From Heterodontus francisci (taxonomy: Eukaryota): a DNA stretch of 64,000 nt. The notes below the pieces were generated by a model. It worked only from the letters and a program-made list of their open reading frames with translations. It did not search any database and had not been told where the DNA came from. Location: the NCBI RefSeq assembly GCF_036365525.1, contig NC_090394.1:49660198-49724197 (forward strand), given 5' to 3'. This document shows, piece by piece, positions 4,336-58,146 of the stretch. A program made the position numbers and the translations under genes. Position 1 is the stretch's first letter. Each line of letters opens with the position of its first letter.

Positions 4336-4613
4336 GTGGTGATTGGTAGAAGGATTAGATGGGACATGAGGAAAAACTTTTTGACCCAGAGGGTGGTGGG
4401 TGTCTGGAATTCACTGCCAGGAACAGTGGTGGAGGCAGAAACCCTCAATTCTTTTAAAAGGTACCTGGACATGCATCTGAAGTGTTGTAACCTGCAAGGC
4501 TATGGACCAGGTGCTGAAAGGTGGGATTAAATTGGGCAGCTAGTTTTTTTCGGCTGACGGCACACAACAGGCTAAATGGCCTCCTTCTGTGCCGTACGTT
4601 TTCTATGGTTCTA
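4336..4613 (+). mobile_element. CR1 LINE 3' fragment
   Basis: Encodes the CR1 C-terminal motif RKNFLTQRVVGVWNSLP and ends in a (TTCTATGG)n tail. TGGTACT occurs on both sides. Confidence 0.85.
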
Positions 4614-4721
4614 TGGTACTTAACACTGAATACTGGCAGTGAGCGCAGTTCTAGCAGTAGGCAGGGTGCAGGTGATGTATCGGCACTGTACAGGCGCTAA
4701 GTCGGGTTGCAGGAGCTGAGC

Positions 4722-6140
4722 TGGCAGTGGGAGGGGTGCAGGCACCGGACTGGCAGTGAGAGGGGTGCAGGCACCGGACTGGCAGTGAGAGGGGTGCAGG
4801 CACCGGACTGGCAGTGAGAGGGGTGCAGGCACCGGACTGGCAGTGAGAGGGGTGCAGGCACTGGACTGGCAATGAGAGGGGTGCAGGCACTGGACTGGCA
4901 GTGAGAGGGGTGCAGGCACCGGACTGGCAGTGAGAGGGGTGCAGGCACTGGACTGGCAATGAGAGGGGTGCAGGCACTGGACTGGCAGTGAGAGGGGTAC
5001 CAGCACTGGACTGGCAGTGAGCAGGGTACAAGCACTGGACTGGCAATCAATGGGGTATAGGCACTGGACTGGCAGTGTGCCAGGTACAGGCACTGGACTG
5101 GCAGTCAATGGGGTATAGGCACTGGACTGGCAGTGAGCAGGGTACAGGCACTGGACTGGCAGTCAATGGGGTATAGGCACTGGACTGGCAGTGAGCAGGG
5201 TACAGGCACTGGACTGGCAGTCAATTGGGTACAGGCGCTGGCCTGGCAGTGAGCAGGGTACAGGCGCTGGACTGGTAGTGAGCCGGGTACAGGCACTGGA
5301 CTGGCAGTCAATTGGGTACAGGCGCTGGCCTGGCAGTGAGCGGGGTACAGGCACTGGACTGGCAGTGAGCAGGGTACAGGCACTGGACTGGCAGTCAATG
5401 GGGTACAGGCACTGGCCTGGCAGTGAGCGGGGTACAGGCACTGGACTGGCAGTCAATGGGGTACAGGCGCTGGACTGGCAGTGAGCGGGGTACAGGCACT
5501 GGACTGGCAGACAATGGGGTACAGGCGCTGGCCTGGCAGTGAGCAGGGTACAGGCGCTGGCCTGGCAGTGAGCAGGGTACAGGCACTGGACTGGCAGTCA
5601 ATGGGGTACAGGCGCTGGACTGGCAGTCAATGGGGTACAGGCACTGGCCTGGCAGTCAACGGGGTACAGGCGCTGGCCTGGCAGTGAGCAGGGTACAGGC
5701 ACTGGACTGGCAGTCAATGGGGTACAGGCGCTGGACTGGCAGTGAGCAGGGTACAGGCGCTGGACTGGCAGTGAGCGGGGTACAGGCGCTGGACTGGCAG
5801 TGAGCGGGGTACAGGCGCTGGACTGGCAGTGAGCGGGGTACTGGCGCTGGACTGGCAGTGAGCGGGGTACAGGCGCTGGACTGGCAGTCAATGGGGTACA
5901 GGCACTGGACTGGCAGTCAACGGGGTACAGGCACTGGCCTGGCAGTGAGCAGGGTACAGGCACTGGACTGGCAGTCAATGGGGTACAGGCGCTGGACTGG
6001 CAGTGAGCGGGGTACAGGCGCTGGACTGGCAGTGAGCGGGGTACAGGCGCTGGACTGGCAGTGAGCGGGGTACAGGCGCTGGACTGTCAGTCAATGGGGT
6101 ACAGGCGCTGGCCTGGCAGTGAGCGGGGTACAGGCGCTGT
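4722..6140. repeat. 29-bp minisatellite, about 49 copies, in ECI1 intron 1
   Basis: Unit GGCAGTGAGAGGGGTGCAGGCACCGGACT drifts to GGCAGTGAGCGGGGTACAGGCGCTGGACT, with GGCAGTCAATGGGGTA variants. It explains the repetitive ORFs at 4620-6064. Confidence 0.97.
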
Positions 6141-6316
6141 AGCGAAGCTAGGCTGGCGGTGAGCTTTGTAGAACGTATCTGAAATCCTAGATTCTTTACT
6201 GTGAGCTATATGTTTGGGCCGCAGATAAGTTCGGTCTTACTTAGAGCAGTGAGCACCAACCCCGCTCCTGCAGTTCCCATCCCACTTACGGCAGCTGAAT
6301 ATTTAATATAACAGAC

Positions 6317-6347
6317 CTGAACAAACCGCCCTCAGCAACGCCGCCAT
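6317..6347 (-). CDS. ECI1: ECI1-like coding exon 1 (MAALLRAVCS-G)
   Basis: agaATGGCGGCG start in a CpG-rich context; 31 nt; donor CAG|gtctgt in phase 1 joins exon 2 to make GGA. The N-terminus looks like a mitochondrial targeting peptide. Confidence 0.65.
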
Positions 6348-6455
6348 TCTCCGCCAGGAACCGGAAGCGGCAAGCCGCCTACAGCGCCGCCAGTCGGGGT
6401 ATGTCGGTATGACAGCCTAGCAGGCAGCAGTGGCTTTGCAGCCAGAGGAGGGTGT
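6335..6455 (-). promoter_or_regulatory. CpG-rich housekeeping promoter of the ECI1-like gene
   Basis: Local CpG cluster, ETS/GABP-type ACCGGAAG at about 6360-6367, and a YY1-like AATGGCGG overlapping the start codon. Confidence 0.55.
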
Positions 6456-6466
6456 GAGTGCTGGCA

Positions 6467-8627
6467 GAAAAACAAAAAATGCTGGAAATATTCAGCAGGT
6501 CTGGCAGCATCTGTAGAGAGAGAAGCAAAGTTAATGTTTCAGATCAGTGACCCTTCATCAGAACTGACAAATATTAGAAATGTAAAAGGTTATAAGCAAG
6601 TAAAGCGGGGATGGGGAAAGAGATAACAAAGGAGAAGGTGTAGATAGAACAAAGTCACAGAATAACTGACCAAAAGGTCATGGAGCAAAGGCAACCTGTA
6701 TGTTAATGGTGTGATGAAAGGCAAAGTGTTAGTACAGAGAGGGTGTGAATTGACAGTAAAGCACAAAGAACTCCAAGCACAAACATGAAAAAAAAAATTT
6801 AAAAGACAGTGAGTAGGCACAGTAGAAACAAACTAAACACACTAAAAAAACTAAAATAAAATAACCAAAGAAAAAAGAAAAAAATAACAAAACATAAAAA
6901 GGGGGGAGGTGTGGAGGTGGGGGTGGGGGTGGGGGGCCGTCATGCTCTGAAATTATTGAATTCAATGTTAAGTCCAGCAGGCTGTAGCGTACCTAATCGG
7001 TAAATGTGGTGCTGTTCCTCGAGCTTGCCTTGATGTTTGCTGGAACACTGCAGTAATCCCAGGACACAGATGTGAGCAGGAGGGAGGGGGGGCGGGGGGG
7101 AGGGGTGTTGAAATGGGCAGCAACCGGAAGCTCGGAATCATGCATATGGACCAAGCTGAGGTGTTCCGCAAAGCGGTCACCCAATCTGCGTTTGGTCTCC
7201 CCAATGTAGAGGAGACCACATTGTGAGCAGCGAATACAATTTAGTAAATTGAAAGAAGTACAAGTAAATCGCTGCTTCACCTGAAAGGAGTGTTTAGGCC
7301 TTGGATAGTGAGGGGGAAATGAGGTGGTGGCGGTAATGGAGGAGGGGACGAGGGTGTCGCAGAGGGAACGATCCCTTCGGAATGCTGACAGAGGAGAGGA
7401 GGGGAAGATGCATTTGGTAGTGGCATCACACTGGAGGTGGCGGAAGTGGCGGAGGATGATCCTTTGGATGTGGAGGCTGGTGTGGAAAGTGAGGACAAGG
7501 GGAACCCTGTCGCGGTTCTGAGAGGGAGGGGAAGGGGTGAGGGTAGAGGTGCGGGAAATGGGCTGGATACAGTTGAGGGCCCTGTTAACCACAGTGGGGG
7601 GGAATCCTCGGTTGAGGAAAAAGGAAGACATATCAGAAGCACTGTCGTGGAAGGTGGCATCATCAGAGCAGATGCATTAGAGACGGCAAAACTGGGAGAA
7701 TGGAATGGAGTCCTTACAGGAGGCAGGGTGTGAAGAAGTATAGTCGAGGTAGCTGCGGGAGTCACTGGGCTTATAATGGATATTACTTGAAGGAAGTGAG
7801 TGGAGTTGAAGGAGAAGTTGTTCAATGTGAGAACAAGTTCAGTCAGGCGGAGGAGGGTGGTGGTGGATGGGGACTGGTTGGGCCTCTGTTGAAGGAAGAA
7901 GCGGAGAGCCCTCAAACCGTCCTGGTGGGGGATGGAGGTGTAGAGAGATTGGATGTCCCTAGTGAAGAGGAGGCGGTTAGGGCCAGGAAACTGGAAATTG
8001 TCAAAATGACGGAGGGCGTCAGAAGAGTCACGGATGTAGGTGGGAAGAGACTGGACCAAGGGAGAAAGGATAGAGTCAAGATAGGAAGAAATAAGTTTAG
8101 GGGGGCAGGAACAGGCTGAAGCAATGGGTCTACCGGCTCAGTCCTGTTTGTGGATTTTGGGAAGGAGGTAGAAGCGGGCTGTCTGGGGTTGAGGGACTAT
8201 GAGGTTGGAAGCTGTAGAGGGAAGATCTCCAGAGGAGATAAGGTCAGTGACAGTCCTGTGGACAGTCGCTTGATGTTCGGTGGTGGGGTAATGGTCCAGG
8301 GGGATGTAGGAAGAAGTGTCTGAGAGTTGGTGCTGAGCCTCTGCAAGGTAGAGGTCGGTATGCCAGACAACAACAGCACCACCTTTATCTGCAGGCTTGA
8401 TGACAATGTCGGGGTTAGACCTGAGAGAACGGAGTGCGGCAAGTTCAGAGGGAGACAGGCTAGAGTGAGTGAGGGGGGGGGGCAGAGAAATTGAGACAGC
8501 TGATGTCTCGCCAACAGTTTTCAATGAAAAACTCAGGAGCGGGTAGGAGGCCAGAGGGAGGGGTCAAGGTAGAGGGAGAATTCTGGAGACGGGTGAATGG
8601 GTCCCCTGGTTGGGGGAAGGGCGGGAC
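6467..8627 (-). mobile_element. Penelope-like element (Neptune-type), left arm of inverted pair, 5'-truncated with internal deletions
   Basis: Minus-strand ORFs contain IKPADKGGAVVV, FYLLPKIHK, DIQSLYTSIPH (PLE RT) and CIRCSQCGLLYIGETKRRLGDRFAEH (GIY-YIG endonuclease). The RT core is deleted near 7785. Confidence 0.92.
6529..6565 (-). ncRNA. Minimal type I hammerhead ribozyme motif in PLE end
   Basis: AGTT-CTGATGA-A-GGGTCACTGATCT-GAAA-CATT-AACT: stem I AGTT/AACT with conserved core boxes. The stem III palindrome is broken (CATT). Confidence 0.6.
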
Positions 8628-8629
8628 AT

Positions 8630-10855
8630 CGACCCACCACCGAACATCAAGCTACTGTCCACAGGACTGTCACAGACCTCATCTCCTCTGGAGATCTTCC
8701 CTCTACAGCTTCCAACCTCATAGTCCCACAACCCCGGACAGCCCACTTCTACCTCCTTCCCAAAATCCACAAACAGGACTGTTCCAGCAGACCCATTGTT
8801 TCAGCCTGTTCCTACCCCACTGAACTTATTTCTTCCTATCTTGACTCTATCTTTCCTCCCCTGGTCCAGTCTCTTCCCACCTACATCCGTGACTCTTTTG
8901 ATGCCCTATGTCATTTTGACAATTTCCAGTTTCCTGGCCCTGACCACCTCTTCTTCAGTATGGACGTCCAATCTCTCTACATCTCCATCCCCACGAGGAT
9001 GGTTTGAGGGCTCTCCACTTCTTTCTTGAAGAGAGGCCCAACCAGTCCCCATCCACCACCACCCTCCTCCGCCTGGCTGAACGTTCTCACATTGAACAAC
9101 TTATCCTTCAACTCCACTCACTTCCTTCAAGTAAAAGGTGTTGCTATGGGTACCTGCATGGGTCCTAGTTATGCCTGTCTTTTTGTGGGATATGTTGAAT
9201 ATTTCTTGTTCCAGTCCTACTCAGGCCCCCTCCCATAACTCTTTTTCCGGTACATTGATGACAGTATCGGTGCCATTTCCTGCTCCTGCCCCGAACTGGA
9301 AAACTTTATCAACTTTGCTTCCAATTTCCACCCTTCTCTCACCTTCACACGGTCCATCTCTGACACTTCCCTTCCCTTCCTCGACTTCTCTGTCTCCATC
9401 TCTGGGGATAGGCTGTCTACTAATATTCATTATAAGCCCACCGACTCCCACAGCTACCTCGACTACACTTCTTCACACCCTGCCTCCTGTAAGGACTCCA
9501 TTCCATTCTCCCAGTTTCTCCGTCTCTGACGCATCTGCTCTGATGATGCCCCCTTCCACGACAGTGCTTCTGATATGTCTTCCTTTTTCCTCAACTGAGG
9601 ATTCCCCACGACTGTGGTTGGCAGGGCCCTCAACTGTGTCCAGCCCATTTCCCGCACCTCTACCCTCACCCTTTCCCCTCCCTCCCAGAACCGCGACAGG
9701 GTTCCCCATTGCCCTCACTTTCCACCCCACCAGCCTCCACATCCAAAGGATCATCCTCCGCCACTTCCGCCACCTCCAGTGTGATGCCACTACCAAACGC
9801 AGCTTCCCCTCCCTTCCCTTCCTCAGCATTCTGAAGGGATTGTTCCCTCTGTGACACCCTCGTCCCCTCCTCCATTACCCCCACCACCTCGTCCCCTTCC
9901 CATGGCACCTTCCCCTGCAATTGCAGGAGGTGTAATACCTGCCCATTTACCTCCTCTCTCCTCACTATCCCAGGCCCCAAACACTCCTTTCAGGTGAAGC
10001 AGCGATTTACTTGTACGTCTTTCAATTTACTAAACTGTATTCGCTGCTCACAATGTGGTCTCCTCTACATTGGGGAGACCAAATGCAGATTGGGTGACCG
10101 CTTTGCGGAACACCTCCGCTCAGTCCGTAAGCATGACCCGAGCTTCCGGTTGCTGGCCATTTCAACACCCCCCCTGCCCCTGCTCTCATGCTCACATCTC
10201 TGTCCTGGGATTGCTGCAGTGTTCCAGTGAGCATCAAGGCAAGCTCGAGGAACAGCATCTCATTTACCGATTAGGCATGCTACAGCCTGCCGGACAGAAC
10301 ATTGAATTCAATAATTTCAGAGCATGACGTGCCCCCCTCCCCCCTTTATATCTTTAGTTATTTTTTCTTTTTTCTTTTTTATTTGGTAATTTGTTTTGGT
10401 CTTTTTTATTTGGTTATTTTATTGTAGGTTTATTAGTGTGTTTAGTTTGTTACTACTGTGCCTACCCACTGTTTCTGTTTTTTGAAAAAAAAATTTAATG
10501 TTTGTGCTTGGAGTGCTTTGTGCTTTACAGTCTATTCACACCATTTCTGTACTAATGCTTTGTCTTTCACCATACCATTAACATACGGTTTGCCTTTGCT
10601 ACATGACTTTCTGGTCAGTTATTCTCTGTGACCTTGTCCTATCAACACCTCTTTTGTTACCTCTTGCCCTCCCCCGCTTTACTTGCTTAAAACCTTTTAC
10701 ATTTCTAATATTTGTCAGCTCTGATGAAGGGTCACTGATCTGAAACGTTAACTCTGCTTCTCTCTCCACAGATGCTGCCAGACCTGTTGAGTATTTCCAG
10801 CATTCTTGTTTTTATTTCAGATTTCCAGCATCTGCAGTATTTTTCTTTTATTATA
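8630..10855 (+). mobile_element. Penelope-like element (Neptune-type), right arm of inverted pair
   Basis: Contains FYLLPKIHK, MDVQSLY, GVAMGTCMGPSYA, FRYIDD (9243-9260), a Cys-rich linker and the GIY-YIG motif LYIGETK. Frameshifted. Ends in a pLTR-like 3' end. TSD TGAGTGCTGGCA at 6455-6466 and 10856-10867. Confidence 0.92.
10717..10753 (+). ncRNA. Minimal type I hammerhead ribozyme motif in PLE end
   Basis: AGCT-CTGATGA-A-GGGTCACTGATCT-GAAA-CGTT-AACT: CUGAUGA and GAAA core boxes with palindromic AACGTT, as in PLE-associated minimal hammerheads. Confidence 0.7.
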
Positions 10856-11479
10856 TGAGTGCTGGCAATTGGGTTATTATTACAGTACTATAGTACTGTT
10901 AAAGACTATATCCTTTATCTGTTAATGGCAGTATATTTCCAAGTACTATTCACACAAGCACCCACTGACTCTATTCAGCTCCAAGTGGATGCAAATCCAC
11001 AGTTCTTTCACTTTGGACTTTATCTTACAGTTTATTTTATTGGTAGAATTATAGACAGCCTCATTGCTTTCTGATTGATTGATCAGCGACAAATGAAATT
11101 ACATAACTTGAGGGGAAAATTGCATGACAGATGCGGGTATGAAGAGCAATGATTGGGAAATTGGAGCATCAGTGGTAGCGAAAAGCTATGGACGCCATGC
11201 TCCCAATTTGAGCAGGTGTAACAGAGAATTGTTCATCTGGGACCTTGCAGCAGGACCACGATAATCATCCGATGATCCACAGCGGTGTTAACTTTATAGA
11301 AAATTTAAATGATGGGCAAAACTCTGTCTGCTGTCATGATATGCTCCAGAGTTCCCATGAGCAATCTCAGATGTGGATCAACTAGCAGTAAAAGTGGTTA
11401 TCTCACAATAATTAATTGTGTTTCTATAGTGCTCCTGACATGCAGTGAAATGTCTTTAAAAAATTTTACATTAAGAACA

Positions 11480-19126: not shown

Positions 19127-20067
19127 ACTAATATGAAGTTCTATTCACAGCCCTATTTATCCATTCCGCTAGGACATTGGCAAATTCAATAATTATTATT
19201 CTTGGCTAAAAGGTGGAGCAGTGGAAGTGTAATAGCAGAAGACTTTAAAGTAAGTCTGAGTATTGAAATAAGTGCAGATGACAATTGTTCTATTATTTTC
19301 ACAAGTGTACTTTACACCAATCTGAATGTCTGGTCAAGTAGTTCATTGAAAAATCATACTTTTTTCAGACTTGGCTACATCCGCAATAGGCACGAAAAGC
19401 GAATTTGAGAGGATCAAATGCAGGAAACTTCGGTTGAAAGATAAAACTAGCCTGGAATGTGTCGTGGTTTTTCACCATTTGGCTTACAGGTGTTATGGGC
19501 CTTTATGAAATGTGTATTCTGCAGCTAATGTGAAAATGTTGCTTCAACTGTTACTTATCTCCCAGCTCCTCTGTTAGCTTTGGAGATTAATTGATCGAGT
19601 CTATTTATCCTAAATCATTCAACACATTGCGAATCAAGGAAAACTCAAATGACAATGAGCTGCAGAATATAGAAAGAACTCCAAATGCTGGAAATCTTTC
19701 ATAGAATGCCGAATGGTGAACACCCAAAACATCATAACCTGCCTTTATTTTTGCAGACGCTGACTTAACTGTGTACTTCCAGTATTTTCTGGTTTTACTA
19801 TACAATCTGCAGACATTGCTTGGTACACCTGGAAAACTATTCAGGCACAGCAGACCAAGTTGTAACACATTACTCCAAATTCATTGGAACTCACCGCTCA
19901 TTGCCGAATTCCACTGTAAACAGTTGGAAACTATTTAAATGCATTTGGAAAATATAGTCTGCAAACCTCATCTTTTTAGCTGACTGCCTTTATTTCCATT
20001 TCCCTGTAACAGAAGCCGGAGGGGAGATGAAGCCATCAATCATGTTAAACGATGTGCGGCTGCCAAA

Positions 20068-20163: not shown

Positions 20164-20301
20164 ATGGGTTTCAGCAAAAAATTTAATTGGATTTTCATAA
20201 TGTGGGTTTGTTGCAACCTGCACGTCACCTGCTCACAACACGCTGAAAGTGTGAAGCAAAGGAAACCTTTTTTTGAACGGCTTAGACGGCTGGAGGAACA
20301 G
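20164..20301 (+). CDS. PTX4: Pentraxin-4 exon 1 (signal peptide)
   Basis: MGFSKKFNWIFIMWVCCNLHVTCSQ...RKPFFERLRRLEEQ, where RKPFFERLRRLEEQ is a PTX4 hallmark; donor CAG|gtgggt, phase 0. Confidence 0.93.
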
Positions 20302-20669
20302 GTGGGTCTGGGCAGCACATTTGGCTGCAGACTTTGTAGTGAATGTAACTTCTTTTGCTCAGCAAGTCTGTTGTATAGAGTTCCTCTGGGGGAGAATTGT
20401 TCAGGTCGCTGTGCACGTAGATGATGATAAATGCATTCATTCAGATTTCCTCCTGTCGATAGTTTGATCAGAGCAATTCTCCCCTTACTGTAATAAATGG
20501 GAATGAGTAAAGAGAGATTTACTTTCTCAGGGCCGTGATGTTACTGGATTTCAGCCATAGGCTGATCAATTGGTGCAAGAAACGTTTTTTCTATCACCTT
20601 TATTTAGTTTAGTGTAGTGTTTGATGAAACTTGCTTTAATGTGCATCGTCTCCAATTTTATTACCACAG

Positions 20670-21261
20670 TTTCGGCGATTTCAAGAACTTAGCTTGACAC
20701 GATTACAAATAATTTCTGAGAACTTCAATATTTCTTCGAACGTGGACAGTCGGCTTCAGTTACTAACAGGACAATACAATAACATCACGGCCACAATACA
20801 CAGATTCCATACTGCGACAGAAAATGACATCAGGAGCTTAAAATCATGGATGAAAAAATTGCAGAAGAAAACCAAAAAAACTGATCTGAAGATGTCGACC
20901 TTGGAGAAAATCCTCAATGAGCGAAGCAAGCAAATGTCAAAAGACAAGGAGAAGCAGAGCTCGATCATGTCCAACCTGACAGGAAAAGTAGAAGTTCAGA
21001 GGAATGAAATCAATTCCTTGGCTGCGGGCAGGAACAAGCTGCAAAAGGAAATGGCGAGCATTCAGGATGAGGTTAAGGGCCAAGGCATTAAAATAGCAAA
21101 GTTTGAGGAGCAGATGAAAAGTGCCTTGCAGAACGACGCTCTCTTGGCGAAGCCCAGCTCAGTTCAGTCTGCAGCCGCTACAGAGCCGCTTGTGCACCGC
21201 CCAAAACCCCTCAACCAGGCACCGCGGGCAAAGCAACAAGTCTCCAAAAAAGAAGGGTCAA
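20670..21261 (+). CDS. PTX4: Pentraxin-4 exon 2 (coiled-coil N-terminal domain)
   Basis: Acceptor ttaccacag|; FRRFQELSLTRLQIISENFNISSNVD...LKSWMKKLQKK; donor CAA|gtatgt in phase 1 gives Ile-Cys at the exon 3 junction. Confidence 0.88.
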
Positions 21262-22941
21262 GTATGTCAGAATTCCAACAGCAATCTGACAGGGGTAGAA
21301 AGTTGAGAAAGCTATTCAAAATTTACAAGGCAGAATTTGACTTAAGCAGAAACTAACCACCCTGTATTGAAACTTTAGCCTCCCTGTTTCCTCCTTTATA
21401 TCATTTCTGACCCTTTCTTAAAATGTAGACGTCCGCCTGAATTAGTCTAAAATAATTCCACCCCGTAAAATCGAAGTGCTCAAAGGTAACAAAGCATCTT
21501 GCTATAATTCTGTCCCTGTTAAAGCTGCATCGCGCTGGAATACCTTTTTAAAATTTAAATTAGGATTTAAAAGACTGCAAGGGAATGTGACACAAAAATG
21601 AGGGGGAAGACTTTTTAAAAAATCAACATAACTCTCATTTACAAAGGCAGCGAGCAAAGCGATACTTGCATGGGAGCATAGCGGCGCTGTGCTTTGTGTA
21701 TTCCGGGATATTTCATGTATGCAGCATTGCAAAGATTGGATGTTTCATGAAAACTAATAACTTAGTGCTGACTCTTCAGTACTCTCCTCCATCCCAACAA
21801 TATGTCTCAACTCCATCCCCAGAATAGCAGCCCTCTTCAGAAACTGGAGCCTGCAGAATGACAAAAGGTCAGAGGTCCGGAGCATGTGGTTGCTAAATTA
21901 CTTTCATGGGGTATTTAGGTTAACATGCTATAAATGCAGAAGGACGTATATTAATATCGTTGAACCATTTATGATCAATGGCTAGTCGACAGAGAAGTAA
22001 GACATTTCAGCAGGAATAAGTGTGAAGTCATGAAATTTGGTTTGCTTATTCAATGAATAGTAAAGAGATTGAAAAATTTGGTGAATAGGTTATTAAAATC
22101 ATAGGTTCAGCGTTCACAGGGGTGAAAAAAAGCAAATGAAATTTTGCAACATATACCCAAGTGGGTGATTTCGAAGTAAGAGGCAATGTTGATCTTGGTG
22201 ATGCCACATCTGGAAGTGTTGTGTTCAATTTTGCTCTCTGTATTAGAGAAAAAATATAGGGAGTCTAAACAAGAGCTACAATGCCAATTCCAGAATTTAG
22301 AGAGCTGAATTAGGAGGAAATGTTGTCTACACTGGGACGTTTGTCCCCAGAGAAGAAAAGAATGAGAAGGGACTTGGTGAGATCATGAAGATTTTAGCAA
22401 GTTTTGTCGAGTTTGAATTCAGGAAAATTCTTCTGTCTCTCACAGAATTACAAGATTAGGGGACAATTTAAAAGGGTGAGAATAGAAAATAAGAAATGTA
22501 TGCAACTTTTGTTATGGAGAGTGATAGTATTTCAGAACAAAATAGCAGTGGTAGTCGAAGAGAAAACACAGGTAGGCTTGAAAAAAAGGAATTATATAGA
22601 AATTAAAACACAGAAGCAGGACACTTGATTCAACCTGTATGCAATGATGTTTATTCTCCACACGAGGAGTAGTCCTAATCCCATGTGCTTGCTCTATTCC
22701 CAGATCTCTTTATTTCCCTTTCCTTCAACCACCTCTAAAAACTGTTCTCAACTGTTGACATGGCCTCTGCTTAAAATATCAATTCCAGTAGTGTGTTCAA
22801 TAACTGTACAAACCTCAGTGTAAAAACGTTTGGGAAAGCTATTAGTCCTTAAATTATTGAAAAATATAGGTTCCAAATGCCGTATAAATGGGATGACTCA
22901 GAATGTACAAAGCACAACAATGCATGCTAAGGACTCTTGTT

Positions 22942-24428
22942 CATAGAAACATAGAAAATAGGAGCAGGAGTAGGCCATTCGGCCCTTCGAGCCTGCTCCG
23001 CCATTCATTATGATCATGGCTGATCATCCAACTCAGTCGCCTATTCCCACTTTCGCCTCATACCCTTTGATCCCTTTGGACCCAAGAGCTATATCTAACT
23101 CCTTCTTGAAAACATACAATGTTTTGGTCTCAACTGCTTTCTGTGGTAGCGAATTTCACAGGCTCACCACTCTCTGGGTAAAGAAATTTCTCCTCATCTC
23201 AGTCCTGAAAGCTTTACCCCATATCCTTAGACTATGATCCCTGGTTCTGGACTCCCCCACCATCAAACCTTCTTGCATCTACCCTGCCAAATTCTGTTAG
23301 AATTTTATAGGTTTCTATGAGATCCTCCCCTCACTCTTCTGAACTCCAGCGAATATAATCCTAACCGACTCAATTTCTCCTCATACGTCAGTCCCACCAT
23401 CCCAGGAATCAGTCTGGTAAATCTTCACTGCACTCCCTCTATAGCAAGAACATCCTTCCTCAGATAAGGAGACCAAAACTGCACACAATATTCCAGGTGT
23501 AGCCTCACCAAGGCCCTGTATAATTGCAGCAAGACATCCCTGCTCCTGTACTCGAATCGTCTCGCTATGAAGGCCAACATACCTTGATAGGTTGATAGGT
23601 AAATTGGCCATTGTAAATTGCCCCTAGTGTAGGTAGGTGGTAGGGAATATGGGATTACTGTAGGGTTAGTATAAATGGGTGGTTGTTGGTCGGCACAGAC
23701 TCGGTGGGCTGAAGGGCCTGTTTCAGTGCTTTATCTCTAAAAAAAAGATTTAAATACCATTTGCTTTTTTTACTGCCTGTTGCACCTGCATGCTTATCTT
23801 CAGTGACTGGTGTACGAGAACACCCAGGTCTAGCTGCATATTCCCCTCTCTCAATTTATAGCCGTTCAGATAATACTCTACCTTCCTGTTTCAGCTACAA
23901 AGTGGATAACCTCACATTTAGCCACATTGTACTGCATCTGTCATGAGTCATCTGTCCATTTGCCCACTCACTCAACTTGTCCAAATCACCCTGCCTGCCA
24001 TTCGGAAAAAGACCCATTTATCCCTACTCGTTGTTTCCTGTCCGCCAACCAATTTTCTATCCATCGCAATACACTACCCCTAATCCCATGCGCTTTAATT
24101 TTACATGCTAATCTCTTATGTGGGATTTTGTCGAAAGCCTTCTGAAAGTCCAAATAAACTACATCCACTGGCTCCCCCTCATCAACTCTACTAGTTACAT
24201 CCTCGAAGAATTCTAGTAGATTTGTCAAGCATGATTTCCCTTTCGGAAATCCATGCTGACTCTGCCCGATTCTACCACTGTTCTCTAAGTGCTCTGCTAC
24301 AAAATCTTTGATCATGGACTCTAGAATTTTCCCCACTGCCGACGTCAGGCTGACTGGTCTATAATTCCCTGCTTTCTCTCTACCTCCCTTTTTAAATAGT
24401 GGGGTTACATTAGCTACCCTCCAGTCAT
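22942..24428 (-). mobile_element. CR1 LINE, 5'-truncated and internally deleted
   Basis: NYRPVSLTS, QHGF, YLDFQKAFDK motifs; (CATAGAAA)n tail at 22942. Confidence 0.9.
23586..23745 (+). mobile_element. 5'-truncated HE1-like SINE nested in CR1
   Basis: Matches the 3' half of 14987-15338. ATACC occurs on both sides. Confidence 0.8.
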
Positions 24429-26804
24429 AGAATAGGTACAGCATAGAACGAGGCCACTCAGCCTGTCATGTCCATGCTGGCTCTCTGCAAGAGTAACTCA
24501 GCTAGTCCCACTCTCCCGCTCTTTCCCCATAGCCCTGCGAATTGTTTTTCTTCAGATCCTTATTCAGTTCCCTGTTGCATAATTTTATTTCCACAATTGA
24601 CATATATATCTGGAACTGATACTCTAGAGGAATAAAAAACAACAACTTGCATGTATATAGCTCCTTTAACATAGTCAATGTCCCATGACACTTTACAAAA
24701 ACAAACTTATTTATAAACCTACTGTTTTATATTTCTTAGAAGGCAGAGTTTTGACATTTTAACAGTAATGCAAGGCAGTTTTGGGTGTGCACTGATACTC
24801 TAATGGTAATATATCGAGGTGTCAGAGTCAGCCAGGAAATAACCGTACACAGGTCTGTATAGCTTCAGCCTGATGCAAAGTGGCCCAGACAATCCTGGGA
24901 ACCTTTAAAGGTTTGTATGATATTTTATTTTATGCTATGAAAGTTTGTATACTCCCACTTTTCTTTCCTAATGTTACAAATTGGCTAGCTGATATGCAGA
25001 GCTCTATAAATGTGGCAAACATTCATGCATGCATGGATCTTTTGTCACCGCCTCATCTAGGGAGATATGAAGATAATACTATAACTTGGATCTCCTGACC
25101 ATATACTGCACAAAACAAAATACTGGTCTGAGACTGGCGGCTACAGTGCAACTGCAGCCTAAGTTGATTTCAGAATTTTTGGCGAAGTCAAAGTACTTTA
25201 CACTGAACATCTTGCAACAGATTGTCATGCAATTGAAAGATTAACATTTTACAATAGTGTACATAGATAGCACTGAAATAAACAGTTAAACCAAAATTTC
25301 ATACTTAGTGAATACAGTTTACAAAGAAAAATGTTAGATTGCCAAAAAACAAAAATAAACCTTTTCTTTAACATTAGACTTTATTGCAAAAGTATCATTT
25401 TATATGGGATGCTGAATGCATATGGATAAATTAGATTTAATAGATCTTTATTTCTAAGAATGTATGCAATAATAGAAAAAATTAATGGTTTGAATCTACA
25501 TTGGTGTAGATGATGTCTACTAATATAGATTTTTCTGGCAATTAAGAGTCTCTGAAATTACTTCCGAAATTAAGGTCATATATGCTAGGCATTTTGTTTA
25601 TCAGAGAATCATAAAAAGAGAAATTTCATATAGCACAGGCCGAGGCCATTTTGGTTTCTGGCCATGATAGCTCTTCAGCTGGAACTATCTATTCTAATCT
25701 CATTTCCCTGTCCTTTCCTCATAAGTTTTTCTTTATATTCTTCCTTTACAAATACTTATCCACTTCTTTTAAAAATTGTCTTATTTTCTCTGTCTGAATA
25801 GTCAAGTGATAAAGCTTTCAGAGTATAATAACCCTCCGTGTGAAAACATTTCTCCGAGATTTCTCCTTCTTTCTTCCACTGATAATCCCAAGTCTATGCC
25901 CTTGTTACTGATTCACCAACTAAAGGAAACAAACTTTCACTATCTACCCTCTCAAAACCTTTCATAATTTTAGAGCATGTATTACATGCCGCTTAATCTT
26001 CTCTACTGGGATGGAGTGCATACTGATTAAGCAAAGACTCCTTGATGCGTTTTAGAAGATCTTTCCCATTTTGTACACAAAATGTTGTCTTATCCCATTT
26101 TTCTTCAGGAACCTACATTAAAGTCCCCAATTCTAACAACTCTGTTACTATTGCAAACCTTCAACCTGCCTACAAATCTTATTCTCAATTACTTTCCCCC
26201 TATTTGGTGCTCTATAGTGTACTCCCAGTCTGGTAACACATCCCTTACTATTTACTAACTCAGAAGGTTGACTTTCCCTGAGCAACACCAGCATCAATAA
26301 AACCTTTTTTTATGCTTGTAATTGTGTTCTTAATTAATAAAAATACCCACTTTCCTCCTTTAGCTATCCTGAAAATGTAAGTTTATATTTATATTAAATG
26401 TACATTTAGTTTCAAGTTTGACCCATTTATCGCAGAGTTCCTGTGTAGTTGCTTAAATTAAGGAATTTAATGTCTTCAAAACTCATTGTGTCTTCTTCTT
26501 ACTTCATAGGAGGAAGGATTTAGTTTAACTTTCTGCAGGGTCCAGGAAAGCCCACAATCTGTTTTATGCTTAATATTTGCATTTATTATAGGTTATGTAA
26601 ATACTTCCATTGCCTCATAATTGTTGATAATATTTGGTACCATGGACGACAAACTCTGACATACAAAGCTAATATTTGGTGCCAAGGTACTACATATGAG
26701 GTCTGAAAGTAGGGATCAATTAACATTAATCACATGATGAACAAATACATTACTGTAGTTCGTAATACTCATATTTGATTATTCATTTGTTTCTCTTGTT
26801 GCAG

Positions 26805-27442
26805 TCTGCAATGTGAAATCAATGATGCACTTTCCCAATTCCTCCACTGAGAACTATGCAAACTTTGGCAAAGGATTTTCATCTGGGCTATTTGAAATGA
26901 CCATATGCTCTTGGCTCAGTACCAAGTCAAATTATTTGGGAACTATGTTGTCGTATGCAACAGAAGATAATGACAACAAATTGGTACTGTATGGCAGAAA
27001 TACAAGCAAACAAACCACCATACATTTTGTAATTGGAGATCCAGCATTCAGGGAACTTCCTGTGATACCACTCTTAGATGGCCAGTGGCATCATATTTGC
27101 ATCATCTGGTCTTCCTTTGAGGGTAAGTACTGGTATTATATAGATAGACGCCTGGCAGCAGCTGGTTCCAAATTCCAAAAAGGCTATGAGATTCCAGCTG
27201 GTGGAACACTTATAATAGGTCAGGAACAAGATAATATGGGAGGAGGCTTTGATGACACCGAGTCCTTTGTGGGGAACTTGGCTGGATTCACAATTTGGAA
27301 CCGTGCTTTGTCTCCTGGAGAAATTTCAGGCATCACCACAGGAAAGTCATTACCTGGAGGCAGAGTTTTAACGTTCAGTGATGTTTCCACTCTTAATGGT
27401 GCTGTTCGACATCTTAATTGTACATGCCTAGAACACTGTTAG
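26805..27442 (+). CDS. PTX4: Pentraxin-4 exon 3 (pentraxin domain)
   Basis: Acceptor ttctcttgttgcag|; LSYATEDNDNKLVL, DGQWHHICIIWSS (HxCxxWxS), LIIGQEQD, CTCLEHC*. The exons total 1368 nt (455 aa plus stop). Confidence 0.96.
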
Positions 27443-49765: not shown

Positions 49766-52034
49766 CATGTTGGATGTTTACTAATACATCTTTAGATGTG
49801 TGAGTTTTTTAAAAAAATCATTATTTTTTCTGGTTAAATATTGAACTATTAACGGTATTGTTCTTAAAGTATTTGCGTTCCTGTTTATTTTAGTTGAGTA
49901 ATGAGCAACTTGACATCTAATGAGTGACCTATTCAAAGCTGATTTGCTACTAAATGAAATAAACGTTGGAGAGCATACATTCTGTAGAACTCTTTATCAT
50001 TATGTGAAGTAGAGGCTTCCATGAGGTCTATGAAGAATGGCAAGGTAACAGGACCATTGTTCTCTTTAAAATTTAATTGTCATGTACTGCCAGCTTTTCA
50101 GCATGCGGTCCCTTTAAAATTCTTTTGCGTGGCCATGCACGTGTGCTATTTATCAAGGATCAAAGCTTGTGTGGTACCTTCCAGGCTGCTGTTCAGTCCT
50201 GCACTGTGTAGTTTAGCGGGAACATTGACTAAGACCAAATAGCATTCCTTGACAGATTTACAAGATTGGATGTAGAGCTTGTGCTGAGTACTTGCCCAAG
50301 TTGTTCTGCCTAATCTGGAGAGAAGGTTGCACAGGACCTAAAGGATACAACCAGATATGTAAAAACAGAGGAGAGAAGTCTGATTGGAATAACTGTTGGG
50401 GCATCTTACTTTTATTGTCGGTGGCATGGTTGAGACTGATTTTTCTCGATCACCTGTTTAATATAGTGGACAGGAGGCTTCTGGAATCACAATATGGCTA
50501 GCCTAGGATCTACGAAAAGAGAAAATACAAGTTGAGATTTTTGTCATGTACTCTCTGCCTATTGCAGAAAGGGAGCTAAGGGGCTGAATTTAACGCCGCC
50601 CCAGCGGGTCGGAGAGTGGCATGGGGGTGGCATAAAATTGAGCAGCAGGCTCCGGGAGGCCTAACCACCACACTTCTGCATCCGGACAAGTTTATGACGT
50701 TGGGCAGGGGCTGGGAAAACGGCCTGCCCGCCCGAGGCCAATTAAGGCCCTTAAGTGGCTGTTAAATGGCCATTTAAGGGCCCTCACCAGCCTCCACGGA
50801 TATTTCACCCTTGCCAAGCGGGCGTGCTGGGGACATGAAAGACCACCCAGCGATAGCTGTCGCCCTTTCCATGCCCGGGGTGGGGGGGTGCATGGCAGTT
50901 GGGCACAGGGTGCCCGATTGAGGGCTGCCCCCGCCTCCCAACCCAACCCACCCCCGGGACCCAAGACGCACCCCCCCTCCCCCCAAATGACCACTCCAGC
51001 CTCACCAAGGAAGGACAGATCCCCCAGTGAGGCATGCCACTACTTACCTTCCCTCCTCGATCCATGGCGTCGGCTGGGCTGCAGTCCCAGCAGTGGCCAC
51101 CACTCCCCGACTTTCACATCAGTGGCGATATCTGGTCCGCCTAAGGTAAAATCTAGCCCAATGAGTTAAATGGCTAATACTGAAAGAACAGAAGAATATT
51201 CAGCATTGGTGGGTTGGTGAAAAGACAAGATCCATGTACAACAAAAGCATGAAAAGCAGAGAAAGAGAAAAATACCTAAAAACTGTGTGTATAACAGAAA
51301 TGAACTTTAAATAAAAATACAAATGAATCGTGGGTCAACCAAGGAAGCAAAGGATGGGTTCATACTAAGTGCCCACAAGTCTTCCTGTGCTCTGATGAAG
51401 GATTGCCAACCTGAATATCTACCTACCTTCCCTCTTTCCAGATACTGAGACCCCCCACTCCACATTGCAAGTACCTATTACTGTAAAGAGAATGGAAGGT
51501 TTATTTGAGACCTGAAGTTTTAAACTCTTATTAAGAGCAATGTGCCTAGTAAAAACATGAGCTATCATTCTTGAAGTTTGTGTTGAAATTCATTTGTACA
51601 GTGTGGGAAACCAAAGACTGAGAGGTGAAGGAGGAGTTCATGTTAAGCTGCAGGCAGGTCAACTGAAATCTATTTGCTGTTAACTTAGTTCTGTGAATCT
51701 TGTTTATCAAACTTGATTTGCATTTTTCAACCTATTATGGTATTTTGCTTTGGAGATCAAGTGTATGTGGGATCTCCTGCTGTTTCCAGCCCATGACATA
51801 ATGATAAAGAGTTCTACAGAATGTATGCTTTCCAATGTTTATTTCATTTAGTAGCAAGTAGCAAATCAGCTTTGAATAGGTCACTCATTAGATGCCAAGT
51901 TGCTCATTACTCAACTAAAATAAAGAGGAATGCACATACTTTAAGAACAATACAATTAATAGCTCAATAACCAGCAAAAATAATGTTTTTTAAAAAATGC
52001 AAACATTTAAATATGTATTAATAAATTCACCATG
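49766..52034. repeat. Long inverted repeat (arms 49766-50005 and 51796-52034)
   Basis: The arms are reverse complements, e.g. gagcatacattctgtagaactctttatcattatgt / acataatgataaagagttctacagaatgtatgctt. Confidence 0.9.
50580..51159. mobile_element. GC-rich MITE-like element (Harbinger-like termini)
   Basis: Imperfect TIRs GGGCTGAATTT ... AAAATCTAGCCC; internal similarity to 63212-63662. Confidence 0.6.
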
Positions 52035-56851: not shown

Positions 56852-56972
56852 CAAAATCAACATACTGTGTTTGCTGGAAATCTGAAATAAAACCACAAAA
56901 TGTTGGAAATACTCAGGTCTGGCAGCATCTGTGGAGAGAGAAACAAGTTTCAGGTCGCTGCCCTTTCATGAG
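56852..56972 (-). mobile_element. PLE-end mini-element with degenerate hammerhead motif
   Basis: TSD TACTCCAGA at 56843-56851 and 56973-56981; core reads CTCATGA...GAAAC on the minus strand. Confidence 0.75.
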
Positions 56973-56999
56973 TACTCCAGATGTGGTCTAAGCAAAATT

Positions 57000-58146
57000 C
57001 TACCCTCACCCCTTCCCTTCCCTCCCAGAACCGTGACAGGGTTCCCCTTGTCCTCACTTTCCACCCCATCAGCCTCCATATCCAAAGGATCATCCTCTGC
57101 CATTTCCGCCACCTCCAGCGTGATGCCACGACCAAACGCATCTTCCCCTCCCTTCCCCTGTCAGCATTCCGAAGGGATCGTTCCCTCCGCGATACCCTGG
57201 TCCACTCCTCCATTACCCCCACCACCTCGTCTCCATCCCATGGCACCTTCCCCTGCAATCGCAGGAGGTGTAATACCTGCCCATTTACCTCCTCTCTCTT
57301 CACTATCCCAGGCCCCAAACACTCCTTTCAGGTGAAGCAGCGATTTACTTGTACCTCTTTCAATGTAGTATACTGTATTCGCTGCTCACAATGTGGTCTC
57401 CTCTACATTGAGGAGACCAAACGCAGACTGGGTGACCGCTTTGCAGAATACCTCCGCTCAGTCCGCAAGCAGGACCCTGAGCTTCTGGTTGCTTGCCATT
57501 TCAGCACTCGCCCCTGCTCTCATGCTCACATCTCTATCCTGGGCTTGCTGCAGTGTTCCAGTGAACATCAACGCAAGCTCGAGGAACAGCATCTCATTTT
57601 CCGATTAGGCACACTACAGCCTTCCGGACTGAACATTGAGTTCAATAATTTCAGAGCATGACGGGCCCCTCATTTTACTTTTATTTTTAGTTATTTTTCT
57701 TTTTTCTTCCTTTTTTTTACATTTTTTACAATTTTTTTTCTTTTGTTTATTTCATTTCATTGTAGTTTGTTCAGTTTGCTTACCCACTGTTTTTTTTCAT
57801 GTTTGTACTTGCTGCTGTTCAATCTTCAGTTCGTTAACATCTTATCTGTACTAATGCTTTGTCTTTCAACACACCATTAACATATTGTTTGCCTTTGCTC
57901 CATGACCTCTTGGTCAGCTATGTGGCCTTGTCCAATCTACACCTCCTTTGTTATCTCTTGCCCCACCCCCGGCTCACTTGCTTATAATCTTTGACATTTC
58001 TAATATTTGCTAGTTCCGAAGAAGGGTCACTGACCTGAAACGTTAACTCTGCTCTTTCCACAGATGCTGCCAGACCTGCTGAGTGGTTCCAGCATTTCTT
58101 GTTTTTATTTCAGATTTCCAGCATCTGCAGTATTTTGCTTTTATAT
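57000..58146 (+). mobile_element. Penelope-like element 3' portion with open GIY-YIG frame and hammerhead motif (58012-58048)
   Basis: ORF 56981-57661: GTFPCNRRRCNTC, NVVYCIRCSQCGLLYIEETKRRL, GLN. AAAATT flanks both ends. Confidence 0.9.

What the first reader, a model, noticed from the sequence alone, without database searches (positions are those of the whole stretch)
6455..10867. 4.4-kb head-to-head Penelope inverted repeat inserted in one event just upstream of the ECI1 start codon
Seen: two 5'-truncated PLE copies joined head to head (6467-8627 minus, 8630-10855 plus), each with its hammerhead-bearing 3' end pointing outward. One 12-bp TSD, TGAGTGCTGGCA, encloses the whole unit. The arms pair over about 1.8-2.2 kb around a loop of about 340 bp. 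The insertion sits about 110 bp upstream of the ECI1 ATG, at the edge of its CpG promoter. Known: PLEs often form inverted arrangements. Inference: both target strands primed reverse transcription from a PLE 3' end, displacing the upstream ECI1 promoter by 4.4 kb. Divergent promoter transcription would produce a long dsRNA hairpin, a possible endo-siRNA or ADAR substrate.
Basis: partly seen in the sequence, partly recalled or inferred. Interest (0 to 1): 0.7.

Follow-up and report, generated by a model that had tools for sequence, protein, structure and literature searches.

The report
Ordinary back-to-back Penelope insertion beside ECI1
Two broken copies of a very common Penelope-like jumping gene sit back to back inside one 12-base target duplication 107 bases upstream of the ECI1 start codon; the layout is already published and common in this genome, it likely arose in one event in which both cut DNA strands primed a copy, and no effect on ECI1 is shown.

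Summary
The structure is real and ordinary. Two 5'-truncated Penelope-like copies (6467-8620 minus, about 8631-10855 plus) are 90% identical over 1,810 columns and lie inside one 12-bp duplication, 107 bp upstream of the ECI1 ATG. Only the right arm has the ~40-nt tail. The layout (inverted copy, one-sided tail, duplication) is published, and 20 of 78 other family loci have an inverted 5' copy. All 15 pairs with two classifiable ends have exactly one tail. Both arms carry a variant found in 11 of 19,288 pattern matches, so this was one event. The tail sits on the 5'-shorter arm, which rules out simple fold-back copying and favours priming from both target strands. One oddity: the arms differ at linked 3'-UTR markers. 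This likely reflects later gene conversion, possibly a second RNA. Promoter displacement is not supported: the CpG-rich stretch and the ETS/YY1 motifs stay on the gene side. The dsRNA hairpin is untested, and a transcript would meet an AATAAA 390 nt in. The scan has reported this layout, and the two-start-site reading, many times elsewhere in this genome.

The parts
6455..6466 (+). left copy of target-site duplication TGAGTGCTGGCA
6467..8620 (-). left arm: 5'-truncated Penelope-like copy, tail-less 3' end, internal deletions of 289 bp (at 7785/7786, 3-nt TAA microhomology) and ~62 bp (near 7318), frames broken
6532..6561 (-). minimal hammerhead-like core of left arm; G-to-A change in the palindromic AACGTT
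   Evidence: motif type from PMC4209133 passages
8288..8632 (.). unpaired loop: extra 5' part of the left arm plus junction
8621..8630 (.). central junction filler, 6-10 bases not matching family copies
8631..10855 (+). right arm: 5'-truncated copy with RT remnants, GIY-YIG remnant (9835-10227) and tailed 3' end
10721..10750 (+). minimal hammerhead-like core of right arm
10814..10855 (+). ~40-nt tail present on this arm only
10856..10867 (+). right copy of target-site duplication
6317..6347 (-). ECI1 first coding exon (ATG at 6347)
   Evidence: gene identity
2268..2405 (-). ECI1 exon 2, in frame with exon 1
6140..6454 (.). CpG-rich stretch (observed/expected 0.77), likely the ECI1 promoter; ETS-like CCGGAAG at 6361, YY1-like motif at the ATG
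   Evidence: motif names recalled

Best explanation
This is one dead insertion of an abundant endonuclease-bearing Penelope-like element, likely made when both strands of a staggered 12-14-base cut primed reverse transcription at the element's two start sites, likely on the same RNA. One strand would start at the outer site (tailed right arm) and the other at the inner site (tail-less left arm). The two cDNAs stopped at different points and were joined head to head with a few filler bases. Since then each arm has drifted about 4% from the family, and a 3'-UTR block of one arm was likely overwritten by another copy. The unit sits at the outer edge of the ECI1 CpG stretch and is likely tolerated.
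For: Shown: one duplication around both arms. Tail on one arm only, as in 15 of 15 classifiable pairs, against 27 tailed and 22 short ends among non-inverted loci, p=3e-5. Of 10 further pairs from pattern hits, 8 are one-tailed, 1 is unclear and 1 is two-tailed without a duplication. The tail is on the 5'-shorter arm in 8 of the 15 pairs, this one included, which a plain fold-back copy cannot give; L153 has non-overlapping arms, the tail alone inverted. Both arms carry a variant with 11 matches genome-wide, against 14,702 and 4,575 for the common forms. The arms are equally old: 18 of 502 and 21 of 499 differences from the majority of 70 copies. The four youngest pairs agree at 138 of 138 diagnostic sites; older pairs disagree at 56 of 468. 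Published: Anolis PAc cuts and extends both strands and starts at two sites separated by the tail (PMC11167929). Inferred: strand-to-site assignment, a single RNA, later conversion, tolerance.
Against: The arms differ at 9 of 46 linked diagnostic sites (p=0.002 for one template with recurrent mutation). These include a 2-nt and a 3-nt indel that match existing haplotypes, so one RNA alone does not explain them. The rise of discordance with age is weak (Spearman 0.42, p=0.054, 22 pairs; 0.46, p=0.037 without L138), and young pairs have little power if one source dominated. The rare shared variant could also come from arm-to-arm conversion. This junction has filler, whereas 11 of 21 surveyed junctions have a 1-3-nt overlap. 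No empty site was seen, and no listed contig crosses the centre.
Confidence: 0.7

Rival explanations
1. One event, two templates: a dimeric particle carries two RNAs (or two units of a tandem transcript), each target strand primes on its own, and the enzyme switches between them, so the arms were mosaic from birth.
For: Linked 3'-UTR differences including two indels. Excess discordance also in L146 and L140. Haplotype blocks are shuffled across the family. The protein is predicted to be a dimer (PMC11167929).
Against: 0 of 138 discordant sites in the four youngest pairs. L200 arms are 522 of 523 identical. The arms here share a variant found in 0.06% of matches.
Confidence: 0.18
2. Fold-back self-priming: one cDNA or antisense template snaps back and copies itself, and the endonuclease later trims the tail from one end.
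For: Proposed for rotifer elements with palindromic junctions (PMC3846280 Discussion). Tail ascribed to endonuclease resolution (PMC8557442). It explains shared variants.
Against: The left arm has 340 nt the right lacks, and the right has a tail the left lacks, so neither is a copy of the other. The tail is on the 5'-shorter arm in 8 of 15 pairs. There is no palindrome at this junction.
Confidence: 0.08
3. Two independent insertions side by side, or an assembly artefact.
For: The family is dense; the pair at 56853-58144 in this window is such a chance neighbour. No listed contig crosses the centre.
Against: Shared duplication, one-sided tail, shared rare variant and equal age. The arms are only 90% alike, so they are not a mirrored assembly. 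The outer junctions are present in read contigs.
Confidence: 0.04

Closest known systems
Insertion units of endonuclease-bearing Penelope-like elements with inverted 5'-truncated copy, one-sided 30-40-bp tail and target duplication (Pen2a_Av and others, PMC3846280; PMC8557442 Fig. 2; passages read)
   Same: Head-to-head inverted copy next to the 5' end, one duplication around the unit, tail at one end only.
   Different: Both arms are long (2.2 kb) rather than pLTR-sized; duplication 12 bp here (mostly 13-16 in this family) against 8-10; filler, not a palindrome, at the centre.
Poseidon element PAc of Anolis carolinensis (PMC11167929; parts 1-2 of 4 read)
   Same: RT followed by GIY-YIG, hammerhead near the end, two end types separated by a tail.
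   Different: The parts read do not explain inverted units; the target here is GC-rich, while PAc prefers AT-rich ATT sites; clade placement not tested.
L1 twin priming (recalled, not read)
   Same: Both target strands prime; cDNAs join head to head, often by 1-3-nt overlap.
   Different: L1 arms do not overlap and only one carries the 3' end; here both arms copy the same 1.8 kb and both reach the 3' region.

Membership tests
EN+ Penelope-like element | single ORF with RT followed by C-terminal GIY-YIG endonuclease | tested here: met
   Near-intact family copy L158: RVT_1 E 8e-6, then GIY-YIG E 0.007. Window right arm: GIY-YIG E 0.063. All are below Pfam's curated cut-offs, so the evidence is weak but in the right order.
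EN+ Penelope-like element | partial tandems forming pLTRs | tested here: met
   An upstream 3'-end copy abuts the unit start in L096, L098, L113, L125, L135, L142, L151, L158, L169, L172; absent from this truncated unit.
EN+ Penelope-like element | inverted 5'-truncated copy at the 5' end, with target duplication | tested here: met
   This locus; 20 of 78 other loci inverted; duplication score >=10 in 11 of 21 units, 0 of 100 controls.
EN+ Penelope-like element | 30-40-bp tail at one end only | tested here: met
   10814-10855; 15 of 15 classifiable pairs.
EN+ Penelope-like element | minimal hammerhead motif in the terminal repeat | tested here: inconclusive
   Core pattern present in both arms; no Rfam hit; lowest-energy folds are not hammerheads; activity not testable.
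Penelope/Poseidon clade | RT phylogeny and CCHH motif | not tested
   No reference sequences or RT tree; no solved relative by sequence.
L1-type twin-priming inversion | non-overlapping arms, 3' end on one side only | tested here: not met
   Arms overlap over 1,810 columns.
endogenous dsRNA locus (siRNA or ADAR substrate) | one transcript spanning both arms; editing or small RNAs | not testable with these tools
   Only pairing potential was computed: 92-94% of columns pair with G-U allowed, 20 perfect runs of >=21 nt.

The most novel reading that the evidence does not exclude
Long-armed head-to-head units record two templates in one Penelope insertion: a dimeric particle carries two RNAs and recombines them by template switching, as retroviruses do, which would also explain why the family is a patchwork of haplotype blocks. 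At this locus a donor-like GTGAGT overlapping the left duplication could additionally place the whole repeat in the first intron of a divergent transcript, giving a 1.8-kb dsRNA (about 0.1 on its own).
Probability: 0.18. Interest if true: 0.6.

Novelty: already known. Interest (0 to 1): 0.2.

Why it matters
As a locus it matters little: a dead, probably fixed insertion in a published layout. As data, long-armed pairs let one ask from sequence alone whether Penelope inverted repeats are copied from one RNA or two, a step the papers read here call undefined. The counts favour two start sites on one RNA plus later conversion. An effect on ECI1, a fatty-acid oxidation gene, would matter but is not shown.

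Tried and rejected
Empty site: the run search listed holders from one sample only and no related species. No RNA holder listed. No listed contig crosses the centre or the whole unit, which proves nothing. Rfam: no hit. Pfam on window fragments: no RT hit. PDB by sequence: no relative of the RT. The 9 other carriers of the rare variant are not sibling copies (12-29% from the arms, six of them near-duplicates of each other), so they could not show which arm matches the source. Sliding-window divergence showed no clear conversion tract (the script stopped on an index error after printing this). Tiny inverted tails at the 5' ends of non-inverted loci: one 11-nt match only. The look-alike pair at 56853-58144 was rejected as a second example: both ends tailed, no shared duplication. 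One search gave no further pairs that I used. Dropped from the survey: L170 (anchor off position) and L144 (duplicate of L133); 6 of 20 inverted loci had an end that could not be classed. Survey loci were picked for likeness to the arms and are long copies, so 20 of 78 is not a genome-wide rate. Paper searches found no count of tail asymmetry or arm concordance; subscription papers are not covered, and the supplements of the four papers, which I did not open, may hold such data. Searches gave nothing used.

Full report
Observation. The 12-mer TGAGTGCTGGCA occurs twice in the window, at 6455-6466 and 10856-10867. Between the two lie two opposed copies of one element, 1,630 of 1,810 aligned columns identical. 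The left arm has about 340 nt more at its 5' end and lacks 289 bp and about 62 bp inside; the right arm has about 40 nt more at its 3' end. Against family copies the left arm stops at about 8620 and the right begins at about 8631, with 6-10 filler bases. The gene to the left is ECI1, with its ATG 107 bp from the duplication and exons 1 and 2 in frame. Contigs from the same sample cross the left junction in two haplotypes and the right junction. These runs may be the source of the assembly, and no listed piece crosses the centre.

Identity. A near-intact family copy gives RVT_1 (E 8e-6) followed by GIY-YIG (E 0.007), both under the curated cut-offs. Both arms are broken by stops and frameshifts. 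Each has a CTGATGA...GAAA core near its 3' end of the minimal type described for these elements (PMC4209133, passages); Rfam finds nothing. One 23-nt pattern of the family has 14,702 exact matches in this 6.0-Gb genome.

How common. I fetched 80 loci picked for likeness to the arms and dropped one for a misplaced anchor and one duplicate. Of 78, 20 have an inverted copy against the 5' end. Of the 21 units including this one, 11 have a flanking duplication scoring 10 or more, against 0 of 100 mismatched flank pairs. Family 3' ends fall in two classes about 38 nt apart: 27 tailed, 22 short and 9 other among non-inverted loci. All 15 inverted units with two classifiable ends have one of each (p=3e-5). 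Ten more pairs from pattern hits gave 8 one-tailed, 1 unclear and 1 two-tailed without a duplication. This is the published layout (PMC8557442 and PMC3846280, passages).

One event. Besides the duplication and the tail rule, both arms carry a variant with 11 matches in the genome, against 14,702 and 4,575 for the common forms. They are equally diverged from the family majority: 18 of 502 and 21 of 499 sites, against 3.3 +/- 0.8% for 70 other copies that were selected for likeness.

Mechanism. Neither arm can be a fold-back copy of the other, since each has sequence the other lacks. Across the 15 pairs the tail is on the 5'-longer arm in 7 and on the shorter in 8, and in L153 the inverted arm is the tail alone, not overlapping the other arm. 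Eleven of 21 junctions overlap by 1-3 nt. The Anolis element nicks and extends both strands in vitro and starts at two sites separated by the tail (PMC11167929, parts 1-2 of 4). I infer that each target strand primed at a different site, likely on one RNA, the second enzyme displacing the first cDNA. An earlier scan note reached the same reading; I saw it after making my counts, and it is not independent evidence.

Against a single RNA. The arms differ at 9 of 46 linked markers (random copies 34%; p=0.002 for recurrent mutation). In the last 240 nt they differ by a 2-nt indel, a 3-nt indel and three further substitutions that each match existing haplotypes. The four youngest pairs show 0 of 138 discordant sites and older pairs 56 of 468, with a weak trend (Spearman 0.42, p=0.054; site sets and divergence measures differ slightly). 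Later conversion fits better than two RNAs, but two RNAs are not excluded.

ECI1. The CpG-rich stretch (observed/expected 0.77, 6140-6454), an ETS-like CCGGAAG and a YY1-like motif (names recalled) lie on the gene side. The first 200 bp of the far flank hold no CpG, and no 300-bp CpG-rich bin follows until 18218. A weak-context CCAAT just beyond the right duplication (10872) would have been about 120 bp from the ATG before the insertion, so one upstream element may have moved. The start site is unmapped.

dsRNA. The arms could pair at 92-94% of columns with G-U allowed, with 20 perfect runs of 21 nt or more. A divergent transcript would have to read more than 2.5 kb and meets AATAAA at 6855; early termination of such transcripts is recalled knowledge. 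A donor-like GTGAGT at 6454 overlaps the left duplication (chance 0.41 per kb per strand), and a long-pentraxin gene follows on the plus strand with an acceptor-like site near 20012. This is a lead only.

Verdict. Real, one event, already known in kind; interest 0.2.

Noticed in passing
window 6451-6459 (+) and 19990-20012 (+): Donor-like GGT|GTGAGT overlapping the left duplication, and an acceptor-like site upstream of the pentraxin gene's first coding exon; a divergent first exon is possible (chance 0.41 per kb).
   Followed up: partly
window about 20165-27440 (+): Long-pentraxin gene, divergent from ECI1: short first exon, coiled-coil exon, pentraxin exon (Pfam E 2e-31); PTX4-like by recalled gene structure.
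   Followed up: partly
window 6328: One contig of run X4 (depth 3.8) has a 9-nt in-frame insertion in ECI1 exon 1 plus two substitutions nearby: a second allele or an error.
   Followed up: no
window 4587-6140: 29-bp minisatellite of about 50 copies in ECI1 intron 1, directly behind the CpG stretch.
   Followed up: no
window 56853-58144: Looks head-to-head but is two insertions: both tailed, no shared duplication, and the short piece has its own TACTCCAGA duplication.
   Followed up: yes
window 49839-51969: Element with 113-bp inverted ends (94%) and no long ORF; possibly a non-autonomous DNA transposon.
   Followed up: partly
L201:4262-4484: A young perfect Penelope palindrome with a 14-bp duplication, nested in the 3' end of an older head-to-head unit.
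   Followed up: partly
L095-L174: Family copies are patchworks of haplotype blocks at 81 diagnostic sites, pointing to frequent recombination or template switching.
   Followed up: partly
L179-L183, L185: Six near-duplicate old copies, five on one contig, share the rare variant; probably segmental duplication.
   Followed up: no
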